Of a stretch of 50,505 bases of DNA, positions 2,896 to 47,485 are shown piece by piece. A program made the position numbers and the translations under genes. The stretch lies in the sequence record MN850606.1. The stretch is one strand, 5' to 3'. The DNA is from Escherichia phage tuinn. The notes below the pieces were generated by a model. The model saw only the letters and a program-made list of their open reading frames with translations. It made no database searches and had not been told where the DNA came from. The stretch's first letter is position 1. Each line of letters starts with the position of its first letter.

Positions 2896-5800
2896 ATGGC
2901 TAAATATATGATAAGCGGCAGTAAGGGAGGCGGTCAAAAGCCCTACGTGCCAAAAGAGATGGAAGATAACCTGATCTCGATAAACAAGATTAAAGTTTTG
3001 CTGGCTGTATCTGATGGCGAGTGCGATCCAGATTTTACGTTGCGTGATCTTTATCTTGATGATGTTCCGGTTATTGCCAGCGATGGCACTGTTAACTACG
3101 AGGGAGTTACGGCTGAATATCGACCAGGCACGCAGACGCAAGATTACATCCAGGGTTTTACTGACACATCAAGTGAGGTTACAGTTGCCAGAGATATTAC
3201 CGGAGACAATCCTTATGTTATTTCTGTTACAAATAAAAATCTATCTGCGGTAAGAATAAAGATCCTGATGCCAGTAGGCATTAAAACAGAGGATAACGGC
3301 GATCTTGTTGGCGTAAGGGTTGAGTATGCCGTAGATATGGCTGTTGATGGCGGTTCTTATAGCGAGGTTATGAGAGATGTAATTGACGGCAAGACAAGAT
3401 CAGGATACGACCGCAGCAGAAGGATTGATCTTCCTAAGTTTGATGAGCGCGTTTTAATCCGAGTAAAGCGACTGACTCCAGACAGCACATCTTCAAAGGT
3501 GACTGATAAAATCAAGCTGCAAAGTTACGCTGAGGTTGTTGATGCAAAATTCCGCTATCCTCTGACTGGACTTGTATTCGTAGAATTTGACAGCGAATTG
3601 TTTCCTACGCAAATCCCTAACATTTCTATAAAAAAGAAATGGAAGATTATTAATGTGCCAAGCAACTATGATCCAATATCAAGAGAATATCACGGGTCAT
3701 GGGATGGGACTTTTAAAAAAGCGTGGTCAAATAATCCTGCTTGGGTTCTTTATGATCTGGTGACAAATCAGCGTTATGGGCTTGATCAGCGAGAGTTAGG
3801 AATACAGATCGACAAGTGGAGCTTATACGAGGCGGGCGTTTACTGCGATCAGAAAGTTCCAGACGGTAAAGGCGGCACTGAGCCTCGCTACCTATGCGAT
3901 GTGGTGATTCAGAATCAAGTTGAGGCTTATCAGCTAATCCGTGACATTTGCTCAATCTTTCGCGGAATGAGTTTTTGGAATGGTGAGAGCTTATCAATCG
4001 TGATTGATAAGCCGCGCGATCCATCATACGTGTTTACTAATGAAAACGTCATCAACGGTGATTTTCAGTACACAAACGCAAGCGAAAAAAGCATGTACAC
4101 GCAGTGTAACGTGACGTTTGACGACGAACAAAACATGTATCAGCAGGACGTAGAGGGGGTTTTTGATACTGAGGCGGCATTACGATTTGGATACAACCCA
4201 ACAAGCATTACAGCGATCGGGTGTACGCGCAGGAGCGAAGCGAATCGTCGCGGTCGTTGGGTTTTGAAAACAAACCTTAGAAGCACTACTGTAAACTTTG
4301 CTACCGGACTAGAGGGGATGATTCCATCAATAGGTGATGTTATTGCTATCGCTGATAATTTTCAGAGTAGCAACCTAACGTTAAACCTATCGGGCCGAGT
4401 AATGGAAGTTTCAGGGCTGCAGGTTTTCGTTCCGTTTAAGGTTGATGCTCGCCCTGGTGATTTTATTATCATCAACAAGCCGGACGGCAAGCCAGTTAAG
4501 CGCACGATCTCAAAGGTTAGCGCAGACGGAAAAACCATTGAGTTAAATATTGGATTTGGTTTTGATGTTAAGCCTGATACTGTTTTTGCGATTGACCGTA
4601 CTGATCTTGCGTTGCAGCAATACGTTGTGACAACCATCAGCAAGGGTGATGACGAAAACGAGTTTACCTATTCAATCACGGCTGTAGAGTACGATCCGAA
4701 CAAATACGACGAGATTGATTATGGAGTAAACATTGATGACAGACCGACTTCAATTGTTCAGCCTGACGTGATGGCAGCGCCTGAGAACGTTAAGATCTCA
4801 TCTTATTCTCGCGTCGTGCAGGGTGTTAGCGTTGAGACTATGGTTGTTTCATGGGATAAGGTTCCTTACGCATCGCTTTATGAAATGCAGTGGCGAAAAG
4901 GTGATGGTAACTGGCTGAATACGCCGCAGACCGCTAACAAAGAGATAGAGGTAGAAGGGATTTACTCTGGCAACTACCAAGTAAGGGTGAGATCCGTTTC
5001 TGCAAGCGGTAACGCTTCCCCGTGGTCAAAGATTGCAACCGCCACTCTGACAGGTAAAGTTGGCGAGCCAGGAGCGCCGATTAATCTTACGGCTTCTGAT
5101 AATGAAGTTTTTGGCATTCGTGTCAAATGGGGTATGCCGGAAGGATCAGGCGATACGGCTTACATTGAGCTTCACCAATCGCCAGACGGAACGGTTGAAA
5201 ACTCAAGTCTGCTTACGCTGATTCCATATCCTCAATATGAGTATTGGCATAGCACGTTACCAGCGGGGCAAGTTGTATGGTATAGAATCCGCAGCGTTGA
5301 CAGAATAGGCAACGTTTCAAGCTGGACTGACTTTGTTCGCGGCATGGCGTCAGATGACGTTGAATCTGTTTTGGGCGACATTCTGGACAAGATTTTTGAT
5401 ACAGAAGCTGGTCAAGAAATCAAAGAGAACGCCATAGACAGTGCCAATAAAATCAAAGACCAGGCGCAATCAATCATACAGAACGCGTTGGCAAATGATG
5501 CAGATGTGAAGTGGACGCGAGTGCAAAACGGAAAGCGCAAGGCTGAATATGGTCATGCTCTTGAGCTTATCGCCAATGAAACAGAAGCGCGCGTAACTCA
5601 AATCGAAGAGTTAAGGGCTTCAATTGATGGCGAGATAACATCAAGCATCAAGACAGTGCAGGAGGCAATTGCCACTGAATCAGAGACGCGAGCGACTCAA
5701 ATTCAGCAGCTTGATTCTAAATTCACAAAAGAAATCGACGGCGTGCGCAAGGATACTTCTGCAAGCATTAGCGATGTAAGGCAGACAATCACTAACGAGT

Positions 5801-6474
5801 CAGAAGCGCGCGCTCAGGCCGTTCAGCAGCTTGACGCTAAGTTCACGAAAGAGATAAACGACCTTGACGGAGTTATCAAAACAGAAGTCGAGGCTAACAT
5901 CTCAGAAGTGAAACAGGCGATCGCCAATGAGACAGAGGCAAGGGTTCAGGCTGACCAGGCATTAACAGCACGATTTGGCGACGTTGAATCTGCATTGGTT
6001 GAAAAGTTGGATTCTTGGGCGAGCGTTGATTCAGTTGGCGCTAAATACGCTATGAAACTTGGCCTTACTTACAAAGGCCAGCAATACAGCGCAGGAATGG
6101 TGATGCAGCTTTCGCAGGGTTCATCCGGCCTTATCTCGCAAATTTTGTTTGATGCTAACAGGTTCGCCATTATGACTAGCTCTACTGGAGGGACTTTTAC
6201 TTTGCCTTTCGTGGTTGAGAATAATCAGGTTTTCATTAATAGTCTTTTGGTGAAGAACGGTTCAATCACTAATGCGATGATTGGTAATGTGATTCAGTCA
6301 AACAACTTTGTTCAAAACCAGCAAGGATGGAGGCTTGATAAAAACGGAATCTTTGAGAATTACGGATCAACGCCAGGAGAAGGAGCTACTAAATTCACCA
6401 ATGAGGGATTGAAGGTAAAAGATGCAAACGGAGTATTGAGGGTTGAAGTCGGAAGGATTACCGGAAGCTGGTAA
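2896..6474 (+). CDS. central tail fibre / host specificity protein, lambda gpJ-like
   Basis: 1190-aa ORF; N-terminus aligns by eye with lambda J; central FN3-like region; four tandem coiled-coil repeats; start 2896 chosen over TTG 2845. Confidence 0.85.
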   Translation: MAKYMISGSKGGGQKPYVPKEMEDNLISINKIKVLLAVSDGECDPDFTLRDLYLDDVPVIASDGTVNYEGVTAEYRPGTQTQDYIQGFTDTSSEVTVARDITGDNPYVISVTNKNLSAVRIKILMPVGIKTEDNGDLVGVRVEYAVDMAVDGGSYSEVMRDVIDGKTRSGYDRSRRIDLPKFDERVLIRVKRLTPDSTSSKVTDKIKLQSYAEVVDAKFRYPLTGLVFVEFDSELFPTQIPNISIKKKWKIINVPSNYDPISREYHGSWDGTFKKAWSNNPAWVLYDLVTNQRYGLDQRELGIQIDKWSLYEAGVYCDQKVPDGKGGTEPRYLCDVVIQNQVEAYQLIRDICSIFRGMSFWNGESLSIVIDKPRDPSYVFTNENVINGDFQYTNASEKSMYTQCNVTFDDEQNMYQQDVEGVFDTEAALRFGYNPTSITAIGCTRRSEANRRGRWVLKTNLRSTTVNFATGLEGMIPSIGDVIAIADNFQSSNLTLNLSGRVMEVSGLQVFVPFKVDARPGDFIIINKPDGKPVKRTISKVSADGKTIELNIGFGFDVKPDTVFAIDRTDLALQQYVVTTISKGDDENEFTYSITAVEYDPNKYDEIDYGVNIDDRPTSIVQPDVMAAPENVKISSYSRVVQGVSVETMVVSWDKVPYASLYEMQWRKGDGNWLNTPQTANKEIEVEGIYSGNYQVRVRSVSASGNASPWSKIATATLTGKVGEPGAPINLTASDNEVFGIRVKWGMPEGSGDTAYIELHQSPDGTVENSSLLTLIPYPQYEYWHSTLPAGQVVWYRIRSVDRIGNVSSWTDFVRGMASDDVESVLGDILDKIFDTEAGQEIKENAIDSANKIKDQAQSIIQNALANDADVKWTRVQNGKRKAEYGHALELIANETEARVTQIEELRASIDGEITSSIKTVQEAIATESETRATQIQQLDSKFTKEIDGVRKDTSASISDVRQTITNESEARAQAVQQLDAKFTKEINDLDGVIKTEVEANISEVKQAIANETEARVQADQALTARFGDVESALVEKLDSWASVDSVGAKYAMKLGLTYKGQQYSAGMVMQLSQGSSGLISQILFDANRFAIMTSSTGGTFTLPFVVENNQVFINSLLVKNGSITNAMIGNVIQSNNFVQNQQGWRLDKNGIFENYGSTPGEGATKFTNEGLKVKDANGVLRVEVGRITGSW
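5569..5985 (+). repeat. four tandem ~84-bp (28-aa) repeats inside gpJ-like gene
   Basis: Protein repeats IANETEARVTQI.., IATESETRATQI.., ITNESEARAQAV.., IANETEARVQAD.. Confidence 0.6.
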
Positions 6475-6500
6475 AAAAGGGGGCATAGCCCCCTTTAATT
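6473..6500. terminator. bidirectional terminator between convergent genes
   Basis: GGGGG-CATAG-CCCCC hairpin flanked by A-run and T-run. Confidence 0.6.
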
Positions 6501-7115
6501 TTAATCATAGTGTGATGCATTTATAACCAAAACAGATGAAGCGGTGTAAATACCAACAGGTCCAGGAGTTTGTGCAACCTGCCTAGAAAAAGAGTAGATC
6601 CCGTTACCATACGCGGCAGCTTGAGACTCAAAAATCATGAATCCACCTAAAGCCGGATTAGGAACAGAGTTTAATGCTGTCAGTGATGGCATTATGGCGC
6701 AAGGATAGCCCATGTTAACATCAAATGCGATCCCGCTTACGCCTACTTGCTTTGCATCTAGCGGCCTCATTTTTCCATGATAAACCATTTCACCATGAGC
6801 ATTATAAAACGCTATGCCGTGACTACCTGGGGGAGTCACCATATTACTAAAAGCATAAACAATAACCTCACCCTGATTATCAGATCTATCAAGTCTTATT
6901 GCGTGCCTTCCACCATTGTTAAATTGCGTGAATGATATGTATGATTTAGCGGTCAATCTAACAAAGAAAAAACATACCCTATCAACAGGAATTGACGAAG
7001 TAAAAACGGTTCCGGTATTAGCAGATATTACGGCCCGATCAATTAGATTAACTGGAGTGAAATCTGGACTTAACCATAACGATCCGTCTGATTTTTTTAT
7101 ACTCATCCCGTACAT
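6501..7115 (-). CDS. hypothetical protein (convergent accessory gene after gpJ)
   Basis: ORF with GGGGGTGA RBS before ATG 7115; no recognisable motif. Confidence 0.4.
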   Translation of the reverse strand: MYGMSIKKSDGSLWLSPDFTPVNLIDRAVISANTGTVFTSSIPVDRVCFFFVRLTAKSYISFTQFNNGGRHAIRLDRSDNQGEVIVYAFSNMVTPPGSHGIAFYNAHGEMVYHGKMRPLDAKQVGVSGIAFDVNMGYPCAIMPSLTALNSVPNPALGGFMIFESQAAAYGNGIYSFSRQVAQTPGPVGIYTASSVLVINASHYD

Positions 7116-7117
7116 TA

Positions 7118-7396
7118 TCACCCCCAAAAAGTATATATATATCTTGAATCAGATCCAGAAAGCCCACTCCATGTAACGGTGTCGCCACTTACCCCTAAGT
7201 TTGGTGCGCCAGGGTCGCCACCACGCCAGGAATTCATGCCAACATATATTGCTTTCAATGATTTACCTGGCGGCCTGTTTTGGTAAGTCTTGCTACCTGA
7301 TGGATGAGTGAATTTATCAAGGAAGAAAACAGGCGTTAAAAGTCCTGTAACTTCCCTTCCTCGATCGTCATATATTGCATAACCATATTGCGCCAT
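7118..7396 (-). CDS. hypothetical protein
   Basis: ORF tightly coupled to the next gene; Gly/Ser-rich. Confidence 0.4.
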   Translation of the reverse strand: MAQYGYAIYDDRGREVTGLLTPVFFLDKFTHPSGSKTYQNRPPGKSLKAIYVGMNSWRGGDPGAPNLGVSGDTVTWSGLSGSDSRYIYTFWG

Positions 7397-7665
7397 TAAT
7401 TACACCTCAAATCAATAAATTTACTTTCATTTTGCCAACGGTTGATAAATTTAACTTCTTTATTGTCAACGCTCAACCTGTATTGCTTTTGGCTGAATCT
7501 GTTTTCGCGGACTGCATTAATTTTGACTTCATGGAATCCGTTAACAGGGAATGTTTTAACGTTAAATTTTGCCGTGCAATCGATCTCCTTGAAGTTGCCA
7601 GTAGGCGACGCTGCGCATCCTGTCAGAGCGGCTACAGTGGCGATAACTGCGATTAACTTTTTCAT
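7396..7665 (-). CDS. small lipoprotein, candidate Cor/Llp-like superinfection exclusion protein
   Basis: Signal peptide with lipobox LTGC; AAGGAG RBS; position after tail fibre genes as for cor in lambdoid phages. Confidence 0.55.
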   Translation of the reverse strand: MKKLIAVIATVAALTGCAASPTGNFKEIDCTAKFNVKTFPVNGFHEVKINAVRENRFSQKQYRLSVDNKEVKFINRWQNESKFIDLRCN

Positions 7666-7721
7666 CTTCAATACTCCTTAGTTGTTGTTGAATGCAACTA
7701 TACACGATCTTGGGCATCGCG

Positions 7722-7741
7722 TTTAGCAAAAAGTGCTATTT
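7722..7741 (-). promoter_or_regulatory. conserved motif copy, upstream of lipoprotein gene
   Basis: TTTAGCAAAAAGTGCTATTT on + strand; TATAGT on minus strand at 7697..7702. Confidence 0.6.
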
Positions 7742-8000
7742 GTTATTTTTTGTTTTCCGGTGTTATCGAATTTAAGACGGCGTAAATTTAGCGCAAAATT
7801 TAGACAACATAAGATCAATAAACAATCAATAAAATAGATATATACATATAAAATCAATAGTTTATTTATTTATGTATGTATATTTGTTTTTTCTTGTTAT
7901 CTGCGTTTCTTGTGGTTTTGGTTGTTTGTGGTGATTTTTCTTTCTGAGTATCTGTATGTGCCATCATTCATGTGTATGTATATAATCCGGCGTATCTGAG
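7741..8000 (+). repeat. non-coding regulatory region, copy A of a duplicated element
   Basis: Shares TTTTCCGGTGT, TTATTTATTTAT, GT-rich tract and GTATGTATATAATCCGGCG with 28436..28665. Confidence 0.55.
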
Positions 8001-8108
8001 AGAGCATGGGAACAAGAAAAATAACACACATTAATCATTAACTTATGAGTCAAATCTGTTTTCTTGCCATCTGAGAACGTTTAGAAAACAGAAAAAACAA
8101 AACAGCTA

Positions 8109-8136
8109 TTGACTAAATCAACCAAATGGCTACAAT
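8109..8136 (+). promoter_or_regulatory. sigma70-like promoter of recombination operon
   Basis: TTGACT, 16-nt spacer, TACAAT. Confidence 0.55.
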
Positions 8137-8166
8137 GCACGCATAAAGCAACAAGGAGCATTAAAG

Positions 8167-9222
8167 ATGAGTGATTTTAACGCCTACACTAGCGAAGAAA
8201 TGAGCAACGAGCTTTATCATGATCCTAACGCGTGGACGGCTGAATATGTCAGCGGTTCCAGCCTAGCGGAGATTTACAGCACTTGCCCGGCGTACTGGAA
8301 GTACAAGCCGCGCCAGGAAACTAAAGCACTTGTTTTCGGTACGCAGTCGCATACCAACTTTGAAAGCAAGGAGCTATTCGAAAAAACATATCGCCGCGCA
8401 CCGTCGCAGGATGATTTTAAAGATCTGATCACTAGTCAAACGGCGTTAGCATCAAAGCTGAAATCTTTTGGCCTGAAAGGTACAACGGGCAAACAATACC
8501 CTGAATTACTGGAAATGCTGTACAAGTGCGGCGAGGATCTCAATGTGTGGTGGCTTATCGAAATGATGGCAGAATGCCAGGCCGCAGCGGACGGAGTGCA
8601 GTTAATAGACGCTAAAGATTATGATGCCTGTGTAGCGATGCGGCGCGTACTTGAGGCCATACCGGAGCATAACGCTTGCATGAACAGCCCAACCGCGCAG
8701 CGTGAAATGTCAATATTTGGGATCATCAACGGCGTAAAAGTAAAAGTGCGTCTTGATCACGTTGACGTAAACAAGGATGTAAAGGCAACAATCATTAACG
8801 GTTACGACGAAGAAGGCAGGCCGATTTATGAAGAAGTCACCTATCCAGAAGCGGTGATTATCACTGACTACAAAACAACGGTTAGCGCAAATCCGGTTGA
8901 CTTCCAGCGCCTGGCTTACAATCACGGCTATTATCTTAAAATGGCTTTGCAACATGACTTATTCAAAAAGGCTTATCCAGACGAGGAAAGGCCAGTAATT
9001 GTAAGATTGCTTGCGCAGGAGAAGAAAGAGCCTTACTTGCCGCTTGCTTTCCGCATGAATATTGAGCAATTGAAGATCGGGCGCATCCAGTACATGAGCG
9101 TGATCAACAAGTTCAACGTTTGCCAGCAGTTAGACGAATGGCCTTCGTATGCAAACGGGCAACCGGAAATTGATCTTGATACTCCTGATTGGGTTCGTGC
9201 TCAATTCAGGCATTATCTTTGA
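8167..9222 (+). CDS. PD-(D/E)XK family recombination exonuclease
   Basis: RLDHVDV ... ITDYKT nuclease-like motifs; sits upstream of Erf and SSB. Confidence 0.55.
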   Translation: MSDFNAYTSEEMSNELYHDPNAWTAEYVSGSSLAEIYSTCPAYWKYKPRQETKALVFGTQSHTNFESKELFEKTYRRAPSQDDFKDLITSQTALASKLKSFGLKGTTGKQYPELLEMLYKCGEDLNVWWLIEMMAECQAAADGVQLIDAKDYDACVAMRRVLEAIPEHNACMNSPTAQREMSIFGIINGVKVKVRLDHVDVNKDVKATIINGYDEEGRPIYEEVTYPEAVIITDYKTTVSANPVDFQRLAYNHGYYLKMALQHDLFKKAYPDEERPVIVRLLAQEKKEPYLPLAFRMNIEQLKIGRIQYMSVINKFNVCQQLDEWPSYANGQPEIDLDTPDWVRAQFRHYL

Positions 9223-9297
9223 TAAACTAAACAAATAGCTAAACTTTTATAATGGTTGGTGATATAATTCGCCAACCAGATAACGGGAGAATGAGAA

Positions 9298-9555
9298 ATG
9301 ACAGACAAAGACAATGCCACATTATTGCATTTAGAACGATTCATTGATCGAGTAACCATTGCAATGAAAGAATTTATTAAGCCGATGAACATTAAAGAGT
9401 CGGAAGAAATGAAGACTTACATCAAGGACGTGGTTGCATCCATTGACAACGTTATCCTTGTTGCAACGATGAGCAAGGGAAACAAAGAGCGCGAGAGGTT
9501 GGTTGCTGAATCAACAGAAGAATTTATTAAAATGCTTGAAAGCGAGAAGGAATAA
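9298..9555 (+). CDS. hypothetical protein
   Basis: ORF between exonuclease and Erf; upstream AAATAGC + TATAAT + hairpin (9234..9277). Confidence 0.4.
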   Translation: MTDKDNATLLHLERFIDRVTIAMKEFIKPMNIKESEEMKTYIKDVVASIDNVILVATMSKGNKERERLVAESTEEFIKMLESEKE

Positions 9556-17398: not shown

Positions 17399-17817
17399 TG
17401 GCTATAACTGATAAAGGAGATTATCTTGAGTTTTACGAAAGAGATCCAACCGACACTAGAAAGGAAGTTAATCACCAGATAGATAGCTTTCAGTGGTTGA
17501 CTTATGCTCATCCTTACTTGCTGGCGTGGCATACGGTAAACGAGAATGAGAAGTCGAAAGTAACGGCGATGATTGATCAGCAGTCCGGCTTGGTTAAGGG
17601 GGTAAGCGATTTCATCATCCTGATTGGTTCAAACGGAAAATACCCCTTTGCAGCGATTGAGATCAAACGAGTTAATAAATCAGGCAAGGGGAAAGCATCA
17701 CCAGTCAGCGATGAACAAAAGGCTTTTTTGCGTCGCGTTCGCAGTTTAGGAGGATTCGCTGCGGTCGCCTACGGATTTAATCAGTTTAAGTTAGCTATTG
17801 AATACATGCTTAAATAG
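17398..17817 (+). CDS. VRR-NUC domain nuclease
   Basis: D...EIK-type motif (DFIIL..AIEIKRV). Confidence 0.6.
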   Translation: MAITDKGDYLEFYERDPTDTRKEVNHQIDSFQWLTYAHPYLLAWHTVNENEKSKVTAMIDQQSGLVKGVSDFIILIGSNGKYPFAAIEIKRVNKSGKGKASPVSDEQKAFLRRVRSLGGFAAVAYGFNQFKLAIEYMLK

Positions 17818-17833
17818 CACTTTTTGTTAAAAC
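17812..17833 (+). promoter_or_regulatory. conserved motif copy upstream of dam
   Basis: AAATAGCACTTTTTGTTAAAAC incl. TAG stop of upstream gene; hairpin and ATAATT follow. Confidence 0.6.
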
Positions 17834-18884: not shown

Positions 18885-18903
18885 TAGCACTTTTTGTTAA
18901 AAC
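18883..18903 (+). promoter_or_regulatory. conserved motif copy
   Basis: AATAGCACTTTTTGTTAAAAC, hairpin, ATAATT, CATCGAAACGAAC box (18933..18945). Confidence 0.6.
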
Positions 18904-20726: not shown

Positions 20727-20942
20727 ATGAAAGATTTTATTAACGCAGCTACCGCTGGATCTGGCGGTTCATCTATCGCAAGCGCCGCTACAGGGCAGTT
20801 AACCATTGCTATTGCCAGCTTTGTTTTAATGGCTGCATTCGGTGCATGGGGCGCTTACCTTCGCTGGCGTGATAGTAAAAAATTCCACGAAGCGATCGAA
20901 AAAGGTGATATTCAAAAAGCTATTGAAATCAGGGGCAAGTAA
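20727..20942 (+). CDS. holin (candidate pinholin)
   Basis: 71-aa protein, hydrophobic core, charged C-terminus; immediately upstream of lysozyme. Confidence 0.55.
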
Positions 20943-21433
20943 TGAGCATAAAGAACAGGGTAGCGGCTGCGGCCTTTGGCGTTGCGGTTGCCTTGACTTC
21001 TCCACTTCTTGAAGAGATCGAAGGGGTAAGATACAAGCCATACAAAGATATTGCTGGAGTATGGACGGTTTGCGCAGGAATCACCGGACCAGATGTTATC
21101 CTGGGGAAAACGTACACTAAAAAAGAGTGTGATGCTTTGTTGGCTAAACATATCCAGGTTGCTAAAAAAGAAGTTGACAAGCAAGTTAAGGTTGACATTC
21201 CTGATAGTATGCGTGCAGCAATGTACTCATTCACTTACAATGCAGGTGTGGGAGCTTTCAGAAATTCAACAATGCTGAAACTCATAAACCAGGGGAAATT
21301 AAACGAGGCTTGCGATCAGCTTTATCGTTGGACTTATTACCATAACCCAAAAACAGGAAAGCGCGAGAAGTCTAAAGGCTTACTTAACAGGCGCAAGGTC
21401 GAATACAAATATTGCACAATGGATCTGAAATGA
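20942..21433 (+). CDS. endolysin, T4-type lysozyme with probable N-terminal SAR segment
   Basis: Catalytic region [26 protein letters not shown]; N-terminal Ala/Gly-rich hydrophobic stretch. Confidence 0.75.
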
Positions 21434-21825
21434 TGAAGAATTTTTTACTTACACCAATCGCAATGGCGGTGATCTTGTCTGGATGTTCAAGCGTTACGCC
21501 ACTGACCGGATTAATCGGCAGTAAGCCGGAAATCACAGCACAGGCTGGATCGGAGAACGTGAAGCAGACAGTTGGCATTACAGCAAAGCAGGACGCCAGC
21601 ACAAAACAGGAAACCACAATAAAGGAATCTGCGGTTGACAAGGTGGACACGTCCAGCAAGAAGGATTTCACAACATCAACCATTCAGGCCAATACCATCA
21701 AGGCAGACAAAATTCATGTCGTGCAGGGTAATAACGGTAGATGGTACGATCCAGTAATCATATGCGTGGTTGTGTTAATTGTGCTGATTTGTCTTTACTG
21801 GAGAGAAAAGAAAAAGGAGGCTTAA
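21430..21825 (+). CDS. unimolecular spanin
   Basis: Lipobox ILSGC at N-terminus plus C-terminal transmembrane segment; ATGA overlap with endolysin. Confidence 0.6.
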
Positions 21826-24962: not shown

Positions 24963-24984
24963 TTTTAACAAAAAGTGCTATTTT
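24963..24984 (-). promoter_or_regulatory. conserved motif copy
   Basis: TTTTAACAAAAAGTGCTATTTT incl. stop of methylase gene; hairpin and ATAATC follow. Confidence 0.6.
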
Positions 24985-28185: not shown

Positions 28186-28206
28186 TTTTAACAAAAAGTG
28201 CTATTT
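28186..28206 (-). promoter_or_regulatory. conserved motif copy, candidate promoter of minus-strand early block
   Basis: TTTTAACAAAAAGTGCTATTT; TACATT and CATCGAAACGAAC box follow on minus strand. Confidence 0.6.
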
Positions 28207-28435
28207 GACGGTTATCGCCAGGATTGCGATCGAAATAATCAAAAGTAATCATTCGTAATCAAATCACGTCAAAATGATGATTGCCTTTGCAAATTTGATG
28301 AGAAAAGTAATCACGTTTAATCATTGGTTGCAGGGGAGATAGTGAAACCTTCCCCTCTTGCCTCACTTTTCCGCCTGGCTGTCAGTGGTTGTTGTCTTTT
28401 GTTCACCCCTGTTACCGATTTCAGGCGGCGTGTTT

Positions 28436-28665
28436 CCGCGCGGTTTTCCGGTGTAGCGAAAACGAAAAAAACAAAAAAATCCCTCTATAATACATTGAAA
28501 ATAAAGATTATTTATTTATATATATCTATAATGTTTTCTTTTTGTTCTCACTGTTACAGTGCTTTTTGTTGGTTATGGTGTGGTTGTGTGTGGGTATATA
28601 TGGATAGTTGCGCGCGCGGCGGATTGCATATGTATATATACTTTTTCCGGCGGATTGCGTTAACA
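28436..28665 (+). repeat. non-coding regulatory region, copy B of duplicated element
   Basis: Shared segments with 7741..8000; A-tracts, two TATAAT boxes, GCGCGCGCG and ATATGTATATATA tracts, CGGCGGATTGC twice. Confidence 0.55.
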
Positions 28666-28759
28666 GCGTGAACATAAAAATAACAGCAGCGAAATCAATA
28701 ACTTGCGCATGATTTTGTAGTTTTTCGATATTGGTAACGTTTTGAATACAACAAAAACA

Positions 28760-28787
28760 TTGACACGCACCAAATAGCTTTTATAAT
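28760..28787 (+). promoter_or_regulatory. near-consensus sigma70 promoter of plus-strand early block
   Basis: TTGACA, 16-nt spacer, TATAAT. Confidence 0.65.
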
Positions 28788-28818: not shown

Positions 28819-29280
28819 ATGGAACAGAAGACCACTAAGGACTATTGCGATTGGCTTCGCGAGCTTGGTCGCCGCCTGGCTAGTGGCGATATTGAAGAGT
28901 ATAAAATGTCACTAATTGACCTGGCCGGAATGTTAAGCGGTGACGACTGCTACAAGATCACGCGCAGTTCATCCTACAGCCGGACCATTATCAACCGCGT
29001 TCCAGAAGTAAGGGCCGCAGGTCGGGTAAGCATCAAGGTAGAGGAAACGGAAGATGATAAATTTTACGTTTTCCGCATGGTCCGCGAATCGAAAAGGAAA
29101 ATCATCACACCCGAAGAATTGCCAGCCATCAAGGCAAGGGCGATCAAAAAGTTTGCCGATCGCATACTGGCAGCAATCCCGAATATCGTTGACCTGGAAG
29201 GGGATAAACTGGCTGGGGCTTGCGAGGGCGTAAGCCGCTACCAGGATATGATCCGCGAAATCATCAAAGAGGAAGAGTAA
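28819..29280 (+). CDS. hypothetical early protein
   Basis: GGAGGAAAGG RBS before ATG 28819. Confidence 0.45.
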   Translation: MEQKTTKDYCDWLRELGRRLASGDIEEYKMSLIDLAGMLSGDDCYKITRSSSYSRTIINRVPEVRAAGRVSIKVEETEDDKFYVFRMVRESKRKIITPEELPAIKARAIKKFADRILAAIPNIVDLEGDKLAGACEGVSRYQDMIREIIKEEE

Positions 29281-29552
29281 TGAAAAAGGCATTAATCAGC
29301 GTTTTGGCGGCAATGGCATTCCTGACCGGATGCAAAGAAGATGGCGCGCATGTTGGCAATGTGCAGATGGCTAACCCTGGCGATGACTACAGCGTAAGGG
29401 AGCTATTCACCGCTGACGGTTGCACCGTTTACCGATTCTATGACGATCGCACTGTTTACTTCACCAACTGTAAGGGCACGACTAGCTGGGAAGTGTCGAA
29501 AAGCAATGGCAAAGGCACGAAGACAGAACATATGACCGTCGAGACAAAATAG
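29280..29552 (+). CDS. small Cys-containing lipoprotein (second candidate exclusion lipoprotein)
   Basis: Signal peptide with lipobox LTGC; three further Cys. Confidence 0.5.
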   Translation: MKKALISVLAAMAFLTGCKEDGAHVGNVQMANPGDDYSVRELFTADGCTVYRFYDDRTVYFTNCKGTTSWEVSKSNGKGTKTEHMTVETK

Positions 29553-29568
29553 CACTTTTTGTTAAAAC
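29547..29568 (+). promoter_or_regulatory. conserved motif copy
   Basis: AAATAGCACTTTTTGTTAAAAC incl. TAG stop. Confidence 0.6.
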
Positions 29569-29646: not shown

Positions 29647-30540
29647 ATGTTAAAACTTGCTGACATTAAATTCCCGATCACCTTCGAATCTCGCGGCATT
29701 GGTCATTACATTTTTACTGATGAAAAAACATGCCATAAAGTTGATCTTCATAGCTACAAGCGTGCGCCATCAGACATGGAGATTGAACACTTTATTGATG
29801 CGCACAATACGCAGTACAACGCACTTAAAGACTATGGCTATGCAATGCCAGGCTACACATGTTTGCACTACAAGCCATATAAGGGCCAAGTTTTACCAGT
29901 GCGCTCACCGGAACGCGCAGAGATTCCGATGGTTCATATGAAAACCTGCGACTACAAAAAGCTGTGGTGCTTAAGTCTGGACAATATCAAGTATCCTATC
30001 ACGTTCCGCACGACTGGTAAGTCAACGATTCGCTACACATCGCGCGACAATGGCGTTTATAGCGATGGTACGAAACCAGGGTTGAAAGTTGATTTCTTTG
30101 TCAACGGTCACAATAGATACAATCCGCACAACGAAGAGGATAAAGTGTACTACGTGGAAGACATTACAAAACACTTATTTGGAGAAACTCCATTCGGCGG
30201 CGGTAAGACGTCAATTCAAAAAATCATTGGCGATGAGATCCACAAAGCGGCTGCCGAAATGAAAGCGCCTGGAGGCTGGCGTATTGACAAGAGCGCATTT
30301 GCAAATCAAGAAATCGTAACGCAGGGCGCAATTGAAGATATGCCAGTTGCAGCCACTCTAAAAGGAGTCCGGCTTGATGACGGCACCTGGTATGAAGTAA
30401 CGGCTACACCAAAGACGATCGAGATTCATGATGACGTTGTTATCCTTCTGCTTCACTACGGCGTCTATAAAAACCGGACGATTGCAGGTGAGATCAGCAT
30501 TAAGCGCGGAACGATGGTTAAGTGGAAGGTGAAGATTTGA
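29647..30540 (+). CDS. hypothetical protein with internal duplication
   Basis: Two related halves (LADIKFPITFESRG.. / LDNIKYPITFRTTG..). Confidence 0.45.
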   Translation: MLKLADIKFPITFESRGIGHYIFTDEKTCHKVDLHSYKRAPSDMEIEHFIDAHNTQYNALKDYGYAMPGYTCLHYKPYKGQVLPVRSPERAEIPMVHMKTCDYKKLWCLSLDNIKYPITFRTTGKSTIRYTSRDNGVYSDGTKPGLKVDFFVNGHNRYNPHNEEDKVYYVEDITKHLFGETPFGGGKTSIQKIIGDEIHKAAAEMKAPGGWRIDKSAFANQEIVTQGAIEDMPVAATLKGVRLDDGTWYEVTATPKTIEIHDDVVILLLHYGVYKNRTIAGEISIKRGTMVKWKVKI

Positions 30541-34902: not shown

Positions 34903-34921
34903 TAGCACTTTTTGTTAAAAC
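34901..34921 (+). promoter_or_regulatory. conserved motif copy
   Basis: AATAGCACTTTTTGTTAAAAC incl. TAA stop; hairpin with TAAAGT follows. Confidence 0.6.
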
Positions 34922-47466: not shown

Positions 47467-47485
47467 TTTTAACAAAAAGTGCTAT
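47467..47485 (-). promoter_or_regulatory. conserved motif copy fused to RBS of tail chaperone gene (inverted)
   Basis: TTTTAACAAAAAGTGCTAT followed by AAGGAG and ATG 47500. Confidence 0.6.

What the first reader, a model, noticed from the sequence alone, without database searches (positions are those of the whole stretch)
7396..7665. Two small lipoproteins as candidate receptor-blocking superinfection exclusion factors
Lipobox LTGC proteins at 7396..7665 (minus, after the tail fibre genes, own motif promoter) and 29280..29552 (plus, early block, Cys-rich). The first mirrors the position of cor in lambdoid phages and the second the early expression of T5 llp; both of those block the FhuA receptor. 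Either or both could inactivate the receptor after infection. Function is inferred from position and signal peptide only.
Basis: inference. Interest (0 to 1): 0.45.

Follow-up and report, generated by a model that had tools for sequence, protein, structure and literature searches.

The report
Phage receptor-blocking lipoprotein plus unrelated lipoprotein
Both small lipoprotein genes are real: the one beside the tail-tip genes is very probably this T1-like phage's blocker of its BtuB receptor (a kind already described), while the early one belongs to an uncharacterised phage family that does not follow receptor choice.

Summary
The window is a T1-like coliphage (Drexlerviridae, Warwickvirus), 99.9% identical to phage orkinos over window 6000-9500. 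Both ORFs exist as described, each with a clean lipobox (LTG|C).

**ORF1 (7396-7665, minus strand).** It heads a compact three-gene operon convergent with the J-like tail-tip gene, at the known hypervariable receptor-specificity locus. The cassette is 98-99% identical to that of FritzSarasin (Bas04), whose tested receptor is BtuB. FhuA-using relatives carry T1-type Cor instead. With signal peptides removed, ORF1's wider family aligns to Cor (hhalign 88%, E 3e-6) and weakly to T5 Llp, sharing their two-cysteine pattern. It fails the curated Cor threshold. It is most likely a Cor/Llp-like outer-membrane lipoprotein that inactivates BtuB, not FhuA. This is inferred and untested, and a 2026 paper already noted it.

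**ORF2 (29280-29552, plus strand).** It is a DUF4884 lipoprotein, second gene behind a perfect sigma-70 consensus promoter. Near-identical alleles occur in phages with different receptors (BtuB versus FhuA). Relatives sit in small-ORF blocks of other, unidentified phage-like contigs. It is therefore not a cognate receptor blocker, and its function is unknown.

The finding is ordinary overall. ORF2 is the only open question.

The parts
7396..7665 (-). ORF1: 89-aa Cor/Llp-like outer-membrane lipoprotein (signal peptide 1-16, lipobox LTG|C17, conserved C30 and C88). Predicted BtuB-blocking superinfection exclusion factor.
7697..7738 (-). Promoter-like element for the ORF1 operon: family motif TAGCACTTTTTGCTAAA (7738->7722), a 19-nt spacer, and the -10-like TATAGT (7702->7697). 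The SD AGGAG lies at 7674-7678.
   Evidence: Not called by the canonical sigma-70 scan.
7118..7396 (-). 92-aa protein (phrog_557, annotated 'outer membrane protein'). Its start overlaps the ORF1 stop by 1 nt. Accessory or receptor-binding component of the BtuB-type receptor-specificity cassette.
   Evidence: 98% to FritzSarasin bas04_0024
6501..7115 (-). 204-aa protein (phrog_425, annotated 'membrane associated protein'). Candidate BtuB receptor-binding protein and last gene of the operon.
   Evidence: 99% to FritzSarasin bas04_0023
6476..6496 (.). GC-rich hairpin AAAGGGGGCATAGCCCCCTTT between the convergent J gene and the cassette. Likely a bidirectional terminator.
2896..6474 (+). J-like central tail fibre / tail-tip gene, convergent with the cassette.
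29280..29552 (+). ORF2: 90-aa DUF4884 lipoprotein (lipobox LTG|C18, conserved C48 and C64). Function unknown. Not linked to receptor specificity.
28819..29280 (+). DUF7174 gene, translationally coupled to ORF2 (TAATG overlap). First gene of the two-gene unit.
28760..28787 (+). Perfect sigma-70 consensus promoter TTGACA-16-TATAAT upstream of the DUF7174-ORF2 pair. Identical in FritzSarasin and SLUR29; PeterMerian has TTGACA and a TATAAT-like hexamer in a divergent flanking sequence.
29550..29566 (+). Family motif TAGCACTTTTTGTTAAA whose TAG is the ORF2 stop codon. It serves the next gene (29647-30540), not ORF2.

Best explanation
ORF1 is the superinfection-exclusion (receptor-blocking) lipoprotein of the receptor-specificity cassette of a BtuB-dependent T1-like phage.

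Proposed mechanism for ORF1:
- It is exported, lipidated at C17 and sorted to the inner leaflet of the outer membrane (+2 residue Ala).
- Its small disulfide-bonded domain (C30-C88) binds the periplasmic face or plug of the TonB-dependent transporter BtuB.
- By analogy with T5 Llp on FhuA and Rtp45 on LptD, this changes the extracellular loops so that the phage's own receptor-binding protein, and other BtuB-dependent phages, can no longer bind.
- The effect is to protect the infected cell from superinfection and the progeny from being lost on cell debris.
- It is co-transcribed with the two genes (92 aa, 204 aa) that specify BtuB recognition.

What is shown: gene, lipobox, operon structure, near-identity to the cassette of experimentally BtuB-dependent phages, and remote similarity to Cor/Llp. 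What is inferred: outer-membrane location, the disulfide, BtuB binding and exclusion.

ORF2 is a separate matter. It is a DUF4884 lipoprotein, probably expressed very early from a consensus host promoter. Its allele does not follow receptor type, so it is not the cognate receptor blocker. Most likely it acts on some conserved periplasmic or envelope component, and its function is unknown.
For: - The window is a Warwickvirus. Its 6000-9500 region is 99.9% identical to phage orkinos.
- The cassette is arranged as J(+) followed by 204 aa(-), 92 aa(-) and ORF1(-), with 1-3 nt gene junctions and a motif promoter upstream of ORF1.
- The same arrangement occurs in FritzSarasin and KarlJaspers. Both have BtuB as the experimentally determined terminal receptor (BASEL S5 table).
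- Protein identities to FritzSarasin are 99/98/99%, to KarlJaspers 55/71/64%, and to the FhuA-type cassettes of T1 and PeterMerian only 24-32%.
- Phage Arnold is 97% identical to G3B1, which has a 100% identical ORF1. Arnold requires btuB by TraDIS and by deletion.
- FhuA-dependent relatives (PeterMerian, JakobBernoulli, T1) carry T1-type Cor at this position instead.
- The literature places superinfection exclusion lipoproteins at this locus: Cor for FhuA, and Rtp45 for LptD with a cryo-EM structure.
- PMC13164509 already reports Cor-like proteins in BtuB-using Tempevirinae.
- On mature domains only, the ORF1 wide family against Cor gives hhalign 88%, E 3.2e-6, with both Cys aligned. A reversed control gives 0.1%, and T5 Llp gives 58%, E 9.8e-5.
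- The three-Cys pattern is invariant and matches the Llp C11-C58 disulfide.
- For ORF2: the alleles are decoupled from receptor type, there is a consensus promoter, and relatives lie in small-ORF blocks of other phage-like contigs.
Against: - No experiment on this protein or any close homologue was found.
- The PHROG Cor hit (E 8e-8) vanishes when the signal peptide is removed.
- BLASTP against T1 Cor aligns only the signal peptide plus a few residues.
- The NCBIfam Cor model scores 19.2 bits against a cut-off of 31.
- The narrow ORF1 family against Cor gives only 5% hhalign probability.
- ORF1 is co-transcribed with presumed late structural genes, unlike T1 cor and T5 llp, which have their own transcription units. 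Its timing is unknown.
Confidence: 0.7

Rival explanations
1. ORF2 is an early-expressed, Llp-like blocker of this phage's own receptor.
For: It is a lipoprotein with a clean lipobox. It is the second gene behind a perfect sigma-70 promoter, which fits early expression like T5 llp.
Against: - The window (BtuB-type cassette) and SLUR29 (FhuA-type cassette) share a 98.9% identical ORF2.
- FritzSarasin (BtuB) and PeterMerian (FhuA) share a 97.7% identical homologue, which is only 46-49% identical to the window's.
- Homologues occur in Rtp (predicted LptD) and in phages of Serratia, Pantoea, Pseudomonas and Xanthomonas.
- There is no similarity to Cor or Llp beyond the signal peptide.
Confidence: 0.06
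2. ORF2 (DUF4884) is a receptor-independent envelope factor. It would be either a post-adsorption exclusion protein that blocks DNA passage through the periplasm or inner membrane (as Ltp of TP-J34 or HK97 gp15 do), or a modulator of a conserved envelope machine.
For: - Periplasm-facing lipoprotein.
- Consensus early-type promoter conserved in relatives.
- The allele follows the phage backbone rather than the receptor module.
- A strongly conserved core, LFTVDGCTVYRFYDDRTVYFTNCKG, is shared across its homologues, which come from phage-like contigs of unknown host.
- Warwickviruses of this type also need the inner-membrane protein SdaC.
Against: There is no functional data at all. The structure model has low confidence (pLDDT 65) and its fold matches are generic beta-sheets. 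No conserved neighbour gives a hint.
Confidence: 0.3
3. ORF1 is not an exclusion factor but an assembly or accessory factor for the receptor-binding proteins it is co-transcribed with.
For: [quoted passage not shown]
Against: A lipoprotein signal peptide sends it out of the cytoplasm, where tails are assembled. The lipobox and the Cys pair are invariant. It also shows remote similarity to Cor/Llp and positional equivalence to Cor and Rtp45.
Confidence: 0.1
4. ORF1 blocks FhuA, as classical Cor does.
For: PHROG 1119 'Cor' is the best family hit for the full-length protein. One GenBank record, phage Kalemo, annotates the homologue as Cor.
Against: Phages carrying this allele use BtuB, while FhuA users carry a different allele. 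ORF1 is below the curated Cor cut-off.
Confidence: 0.04

Closest known systems
Cor lipoproteins of T1, phi80, N15, HK022 and the mEp phages (PHROG 1119; NCBIfam NF047972)
   Same: - A small (75-90 aa) lipoprotein with a near-identical signal peptide.
- The same C-x-A-x-Y motif after the lipobox and a Cys near the C-terminus.
- The same genomic position beside the J-like gene, next to homologues of the two T1 genes gp31 (phrog_425) and gp32 (phrog_557).
- Profile-profile similarity of the mature domain (88%, E 3e-6).
   Different: - Only about 32% global identity, most of it in the signal peptide.
- Below the curated Cor threshold (19.2 vs 31 bits).
- 14 residues longer.
- Associated with BtuB-dependent rather than FhuA-dependent phages.
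- All three cassette genes lie on one strand as an operon headed by the lipoprotein. In T1 and PeterMerian, cor is alone on the opposite strand.
T5 Llp (lytic conversion lipoprotein; FhuA-Llp crystal structure PDB 8A60, PMC9586334)
   Same: - A small outer-membrane lipoprotein encoded next to the receptor-binding protein gene.
- An N-proximal and a C-terminal Cys that form a disulfide in Llp (C11-C58).
- Weak profile similarity (58%, E 1e-4).
- The proposed mechanism of jamming a TonB-dependent transporter from the periplasmic side is the most likely model for ORF1.
   Different: - The receptor differs (BtuB vs FhuA).
- llp has its own early promoter.
Rtp45 of phage Rtp (LptD-blocking exclusion lipoprotein; cryo-EM PDB 9RPS, PMC12685063)
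   Same: It occupies the same locus downstream of the J-like gene in a related small siphovirus. It has the same logic of a periplasmic lipoprotein that alters the extracellular loops of the phage's own receptor.
   Different: It is a different protein family, about 6 kDa, with a different receptor that is not a TonB-dependent transporter.
Receptor-blocking lipoprotein of BtuB-dependent T5-like phages (BF23 type)
   Same: The predicted target, BtuB, and the predicted role are the same.
   Different: tblastn with ORF1 returned no T5-like phage, so there is no detectable close relationship. This was not compared directly.
Pfam PF16225 (DUF4884), for ORF2
   Same: ORF2 passes the gathering threshold. 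It shares the conserved core and the lipoprotein signal.
   Different: The window allele lacks the second Cys pair (SCGKxC) that most members have. The family has no known function.

Membership tests
Cor superinfection exclusion lipoproteins (PHROG 1119 / NCBIfam NF047972) | Lipoprotein signal peptide with lipobox; small size (about 75-90 aa) | tested here: met
   MKKLIAVIATVAALTG|C, 89 aa. The lipobox Cys is invariant in 19 homologues.
Cor superinfection exclusion lipoproteins (PHROG 1119 / NCBIfam NF047972) | Sequence match above the curated family threshold | tested here: not met
   NF047972 scores 19.2 bits against a cut-off of 31. The PHROG 1119 hit (E 8.4e-8 for the full-length protein) is lost when the signal peptide is removed.
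Cor superinfection exclusion lipoproteins (PHROG 1119 / NCBIfam NF047972) | Homology of the mature domain, including the two conserved Cys | tested here: inconclusive
   hhalign on mature domains gives 5% for the narrow family and 88% (E 3.2e-6, both Cys aligned) for the wide family. The reversed control gives 0.1%.
Cor superinfection exclusion lipoproteins (PHROG 1119 / NCBIfam NF047972) | Encoded beside the J-like tail-tip gene with gp31/gp32-like genes | tested here: met
   The strand arrangement differs from T1.
Cor superinfection exclusion lipoproteins (PHROG 1119 / NCBIfam NF047972) | Excludes FhuA-dependent phages | not testable with these tools
   Carriers of this allele use BtuB, so FhuA exclusion is not expected.
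T5 Llp-type receptor-blocking lipoprotein | Llp fold or detectable sequence similarity | tested here: inconclusive
   [not shown]
T5 Llp-type receptor-blocking lipoprotein | Binds the periplasmic face of the phage's own receptor and abolishes adsorption | not testable with these tools
   This needs expression and adsorption assays or a structure of the complex.
Cognate receptor blocker (either kind), applied to ORF2 | The allele co-varies with the receptor-specificity module or receptor used | tested here: not met
   ORF2 is 98.9% identical between BtuB-type and FhuA-type phages. It is 97.7% identical between FritzSarasin (BtuB) and PeterMerian (FhuA).
Cognate receptor blocker (either kind), applied to ORF1 | The allele co-varies with the receptor-specificity module or receptor used | tested here: met
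   The ORF1 type occurs with BtuB users (FritzSarasin, KarlJaspers, Arnold/G3B1). The T1-Cor type occurs with FhuA users.
Pfam DUF4884 (PF16225), ORF2 | Score at or above the gathering threshold | tested here: met
   31.8 bits against 30, E 1.2e-7. 22 of 23 homologues carry PF16225.
Spanin (Rz1 / u-spanin lipoproteins) | Located in the lysis cassette; a C-terminal TMD (u-spanin) or embedded in or adjacent to an i-spanin gene | tested here: not met
   The lysis cassette at 20727-21825 has its own u-spanin with a lipobox and a C-terminal TMD. ORF1 and ORF2 lie elsewhere and lack a TMD.

The most novel reading that the evidence does not exclude
ORF2 would represent a widespread, uncharacterised class of early phage lipoproteins (DUF4884). 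These would act on a conserved periplasmic or outer-membrane component of Gram-negative hosts, independently of the adsorption receptor. Examples would be a receptor-independent block to DNA entry or a host-envelope takeover factor.

This rests on four observations:
- The consensus promoter.
- The very strongly conserved core across its homologues.
- Translational coupling to varied upstream genes.
- Decoupling from the receptor module.

All four are compatible with this reading, and nothing is known about the family.
Probability: 0.3. Interest if true: 0.55.

Novelty: already known. Interest (0 to 1): 0.2.

Why it matters
Identifying ORF1 as the BtuB-type counterpart of Cor/Llp has three practical uses:
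- It helps predict cross-exclusion when phages are combined in cocktails.
- It helps annotate roughly 90 phage records in which the gene is mostly labelled 'hypothetical protein'.
- It gives a candidate small protein that jams the vitamin B12 transporter from the periplasm.

The principle, however, is already established for FhuA (Llp, Cor) and LptD (Rtp45). Its extension to BtuB-using Tempevirinae has already been proposed in print.

The useful negative result is that a lipobox plus early position is not enough to call a receptor blocker. ORF2 is independent of receptor choice. Its family (DUF4884) is an open, testable question in phage early biology.

Tried and rejected
- **PHROG 'Cor' hit taken at face value.** Rejected as sufficient evidence, because the mature domain alone gives no hit and BLASTP against T1 Cor aligns only the signal peptide.
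- **Sequence search of the PDB.** It gave nothing for ORF1. For ORF2 it gave only repeat-summed noise against WD40 proteins.
- **Word-indexed homologue searches.** They reached only close Drexlerviridae relatives of ORF1. The exhaustive profile search was needed to widen the family.
- **PADLOC and NCBIfam.** They gave nothing informative for ORF2 or its DUF7174 partner.
- **Spanin hypothesis for either ORF.** Rejected, because a complete holin / SAR-endolysin / u-spanin cassette lies elsewhere.
- **FhuA as the receptor.** Rejected on the BASEL receptor table and the Arnold TraDIS data.
- **Canonical sigma-70 scan upstream of ORF1.** It found nothing. The motif-type promoter has non-canonical spacing.
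- **Wietzorrek 2006 (PMC1367250).** The paper could not be read.

Full report
**What the window is.** Window 6000-9500 is 99.9% identical to Escherichia phage orkinos (Drexlerviridae; Tempevirinae; Warwickvirus). It is at least 99% identical to some twenty other T1-like coliphages. All conclusions below therefore apply to a well-sampled, published group of virulent siphoviruses.

**The observation.** Both ORFs are present as described.
- ORF1 runs 7665->7396 on the minus strand and encodes 89 aa. It has AGGAG 8 nt upstream of its ATG and an N-terminus MKKLIAVIATVAALTG|C.
- ORF2 runs 29280-29552 on the plus strand and encodes 90 aa, starting MKKALISVLAAMAFLTG|C. Its ATG overlaps the stop of the preceding gene.
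- A strict six-frame scan for signal peptide plus lipobox returns only these two ORFs.
- The phage's third lipoprotein is the u-spanin of a complete holin / SAR-endolysin / u-spanin cassette at 20727-21825. That removes the spanin explanation for ORF1 and ORF2.
- Both are conserved genes, with 91 and 119 phage records respectively.

**The promoter motif.**
- TAGCACTTTTTGYTAAA occurs 18 times against 0.5 expected.
- It always points toward the next gene.
- It is followed 19-20 nt later by a -10-like hexamer.
- One copy sits directly upstream of ORF1 (7722-7738, with TATAGT at 7697-7702).
- The copy near ORF2 (29550-29566) is downstream of it.

**ORF1 anatomy and context.** ORF1 is the first gene of a tightly packed minus-strand operon.
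- The order is ORF1, then a 92-aa gene (7396-7118, 1-nt overlap), then a 204-aa gene (7115-6501).
- The operon is convergent with the J-like tail-tip gene (2896-6474). A GC-rich hairpin at 6476-6496 lies between them.
- The two downstream proteins fall in the same PHROGs as T1 gp32 and gp31 (phrog_557, E 4e-20; phrog_425, E 1e-49).
- They are only 24-31% identical to T1 gp32 and gp31.
- In T1 and in the FhuA-dependent Warwickvirus PeterMerian, the gp32/gp31 homologues lie on the J strand, and cor stands alone on the opposite strand.
- In the window, in FritzSarasin and in KarlJaspers, all three genes are on the opposite strand.

**Which receptor.** The literature identifies this position as the hypervariable receptor-specificity locus of small siphoviruses. 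[quoted passage not shown]
- The BASEL S5 table gives BtuB as the experimentally determined terminal receptor of FritzSarasin (Bas04) and KarlJaspers (Bas06).
- The same table gives FhuA for PeterMerian (Bas05) and JakobBernoulli (Bas07).
- The window's three cassette proteins are 99/98/99% identical to FritzSarasin's and 55/71/64% identical to KarlJaspers'.
- PeterMerian and JakobBernoulli carry T1-type Cor cassettes.
- Independently, phage Arnold is 97% identical to G3B1, whose ORF1 is 100% identical to the window's. Arnold loses infectivity on a btuB deletion and also needs SdaC (bioRxiv 10.1101/2025.12.01.691526).
- The phage in the window therefore almost certainly uses BtuB, and the ORF1 allele tracks BtuB use.

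**Is ORF1 a Cor?** The full-length protein hits PHROG 1119 'Cor superinfection exclusion protein' (E 8.4e-8). That score is largely due to a nearly identical signal peptide.
- The mature domain alone gives no hit.
- BLASTP against T1 Cor aligns residues 1-34 only.
- The curated NCBIfam Cor model scores 19.2 bits against a cut-off of 31.

An exhaustive profile search found 31 representatives, all but one 82-108 aa (one is a 725-aa protein matching in nine stretches). They share three invariant cysteines: the lipobox Cys, a (V/I)DCxAxY motif, and a Cys 1-3 residues from the end of the conserved core. This is the same pattern as T1 Cor, and as T5 Llp, whose C11-C58 disulfide is documented (PMC9586334).

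I then removed the signal peptides and ran profile-profile comparisons:
- The 48-sequence family against six bona fide Cor proteins gives 88% probability, E 3.2e-6, over 55 columns with both Cys aligned.
- A reversed-Cor control gives 0.1%.
- Against mature T5 Llp the family gives 58%, E 9.8e-5. The Llp sequence was verified as 100% identical to T5 records.
- No member of the wide family scores above 13.4 bits with a Cor mature-domain HMM, so the link is not an artefact of true Cor proteins in the query.
- The narrow family alone gives only 5%.

Structure did not help. The AF2 model (mature part pLDDT about 85) is a small SH3-like barrel with no significant PDB match and no Llp match. The crystal form of Llp is a receptor-bound conformation that differs from its own AF2 model, so this negative result is weak.

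I conclude that ORF1 belongs to a distinct branch of a loose Cor/Llp-like superfamily, not to Cor proper.

**Mechanism for ORF1.** Most of this is inferred.
- The protein is exported and lipidated, and sorted to the outer membrane (+2 Ala).
- Its disulfide-stabilised domain binds the periplasmic side of BtuB.
- This allosterically closes the extracellular binding site, as shown for Llp-FhuA and, by steric means, for Rtp45-LptD.
- PMC13164509 already reports Cor-like proteins in BtuB-using Tempevirinae and suggests that the Cor/Llp mechanism extends to other outer-membrane proteins.
- This is therefore a known prediction. I found no experimental test of it.

**ORF2.** It is a DUF4884 lipoprotein (31.8 bits against a gathering score of 30; phrog_6360, unknown function).
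- It is translationally coupled to a DUF7174 gene, which really starts at 28819 (orkinos annotation).
- The pair sits behind a perfect TTGACA-16-TATAAT promoter at 28760-28787. The promoter is identical in FritzSarasin and SLUR29, and PeterMerian keeps a recognisable version.
- Early expression by unmodified host RNA polymerase is therefore plausible.

The receptor-blocking idea fails a direct test:
- The window (BtuB-type cassette) and SLUR29 (FhuA-type cassette) share a 98.9% identical ORF2.
- FritzSarasin (BtuB) and PeterMerian (FhuA) share a 97.7% identical homologue.
- The two allele groups are only 46-49% identical to each other.
- Phages with identical ORF1 carry at least three different ORF2 alleles.
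- Homologues also occur in Rtp (predicted LptD) and in phages of Serratia, Pantoea, Pseudomonas and Xanthomonas.
- In metagenomic phage contigs they sit in blocks of small unidirectional ORFs next to varied genes such as Lar, HNH, the queuosine pathway and DNA polymerase. They always overlap the upstream gene by 4 nt.
- The core LFTVDGCTVYRFYDDRTVYFTNCKG is very strongly conserved.
- No paper assigns a function to the family, and the structure model is too weak to use.

My best guess, with low confidence, is a receptor-independent action on a conserved envelope component.

**Verdict.** ORF1 is an already described kind of element in an already sequenced phage group. ORF2 is a member of a known family of unknown function and is the only part with some residual novelty.

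Noticed in passing
window, 18 sites, e.g. 7722-7738(-), 17815-17831(+), 18885-18901(+), 24964-24980(-), 29550-29566(+), 34903-34919(+), 47468-47484(-): The intergenic motif TAGCACTTTTTGYTAAA occurs 18 times against 0.5 expected, always oriented toward the next gene. A -10-like hexamer follows 19-20 nt later. A short GC-rich inverted repeat often lies in between, and the motif's TAG is often the stop codon of the upstream gene. The TTGYTA-to--10 spacing of 21-22 nt is too long for a canonical sigma-70 promoter. It is probably a family-specific promoter type.
   Followed up: partly
window 28204-28760: An AT-rich stretch of about 560 bp with no convincing gene lies between divergent gene blocks. 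It contains scattered short repeats (TAATCA-type repeats at 28233-28328; CGGCGGATTGC twice at 28617 and 28648; TCTATAAT twice). It ends in a perfect sigma-70 consensus promoter. It may be a regulatory, origin or packaging region.
   Followed up: partly
window 20727-21825: A complete T1-type lysis cassette: a 71-aa holin, a SAR-type endolysin (20942-21433) and a unimolecular spanin (about 21430-21825) with lipobox LSG|C and a C-terminal transmembrane segment. The spanin is the third lipoprotein of the phage.
   Followed up: partly
window 29647-30540: The 297-aa gene after ORF2 (phrog_7116, with an internal duplication suggested by two matched stretches) is present in FritzSarasin but replaced by small ORFs in orkinos. 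The window is therefore a mosaic relative to its best match at the tail locus.
   Followed up: no
L016 5001-5291, L018 5001-5234, L020 5001-5243, and the P0021 contig: DUF4884 homologues in unrelated phage contigs always start 4 nt before the stop of a different upstream gene (ATGA-type overlap). This suggests obligatory translational coupling regardless of the partner gene.
   Followed up: no
L015 4001-4267 (Proteus phage 3H10_20, Grimontviridae) and Cronobacter phage vB_CsaP_009: Distant ORF1 homologues (30% identity) lie among tRNA genes and small ORFs of 90-kb phages, far from the annotated neighbours shown. They look like orphan Cor/Llp-like lipoproteins whose receptor is unknown.
   Followed up: no
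search results: Several records labelled 'Campylobacter phage' (MG0656xx, host Campylobacter jejuni) match these coliphage loci (52-87% identity in the rows shown). They are probably E. coli phage contaminants or mislabelled records.
   Followed up: no
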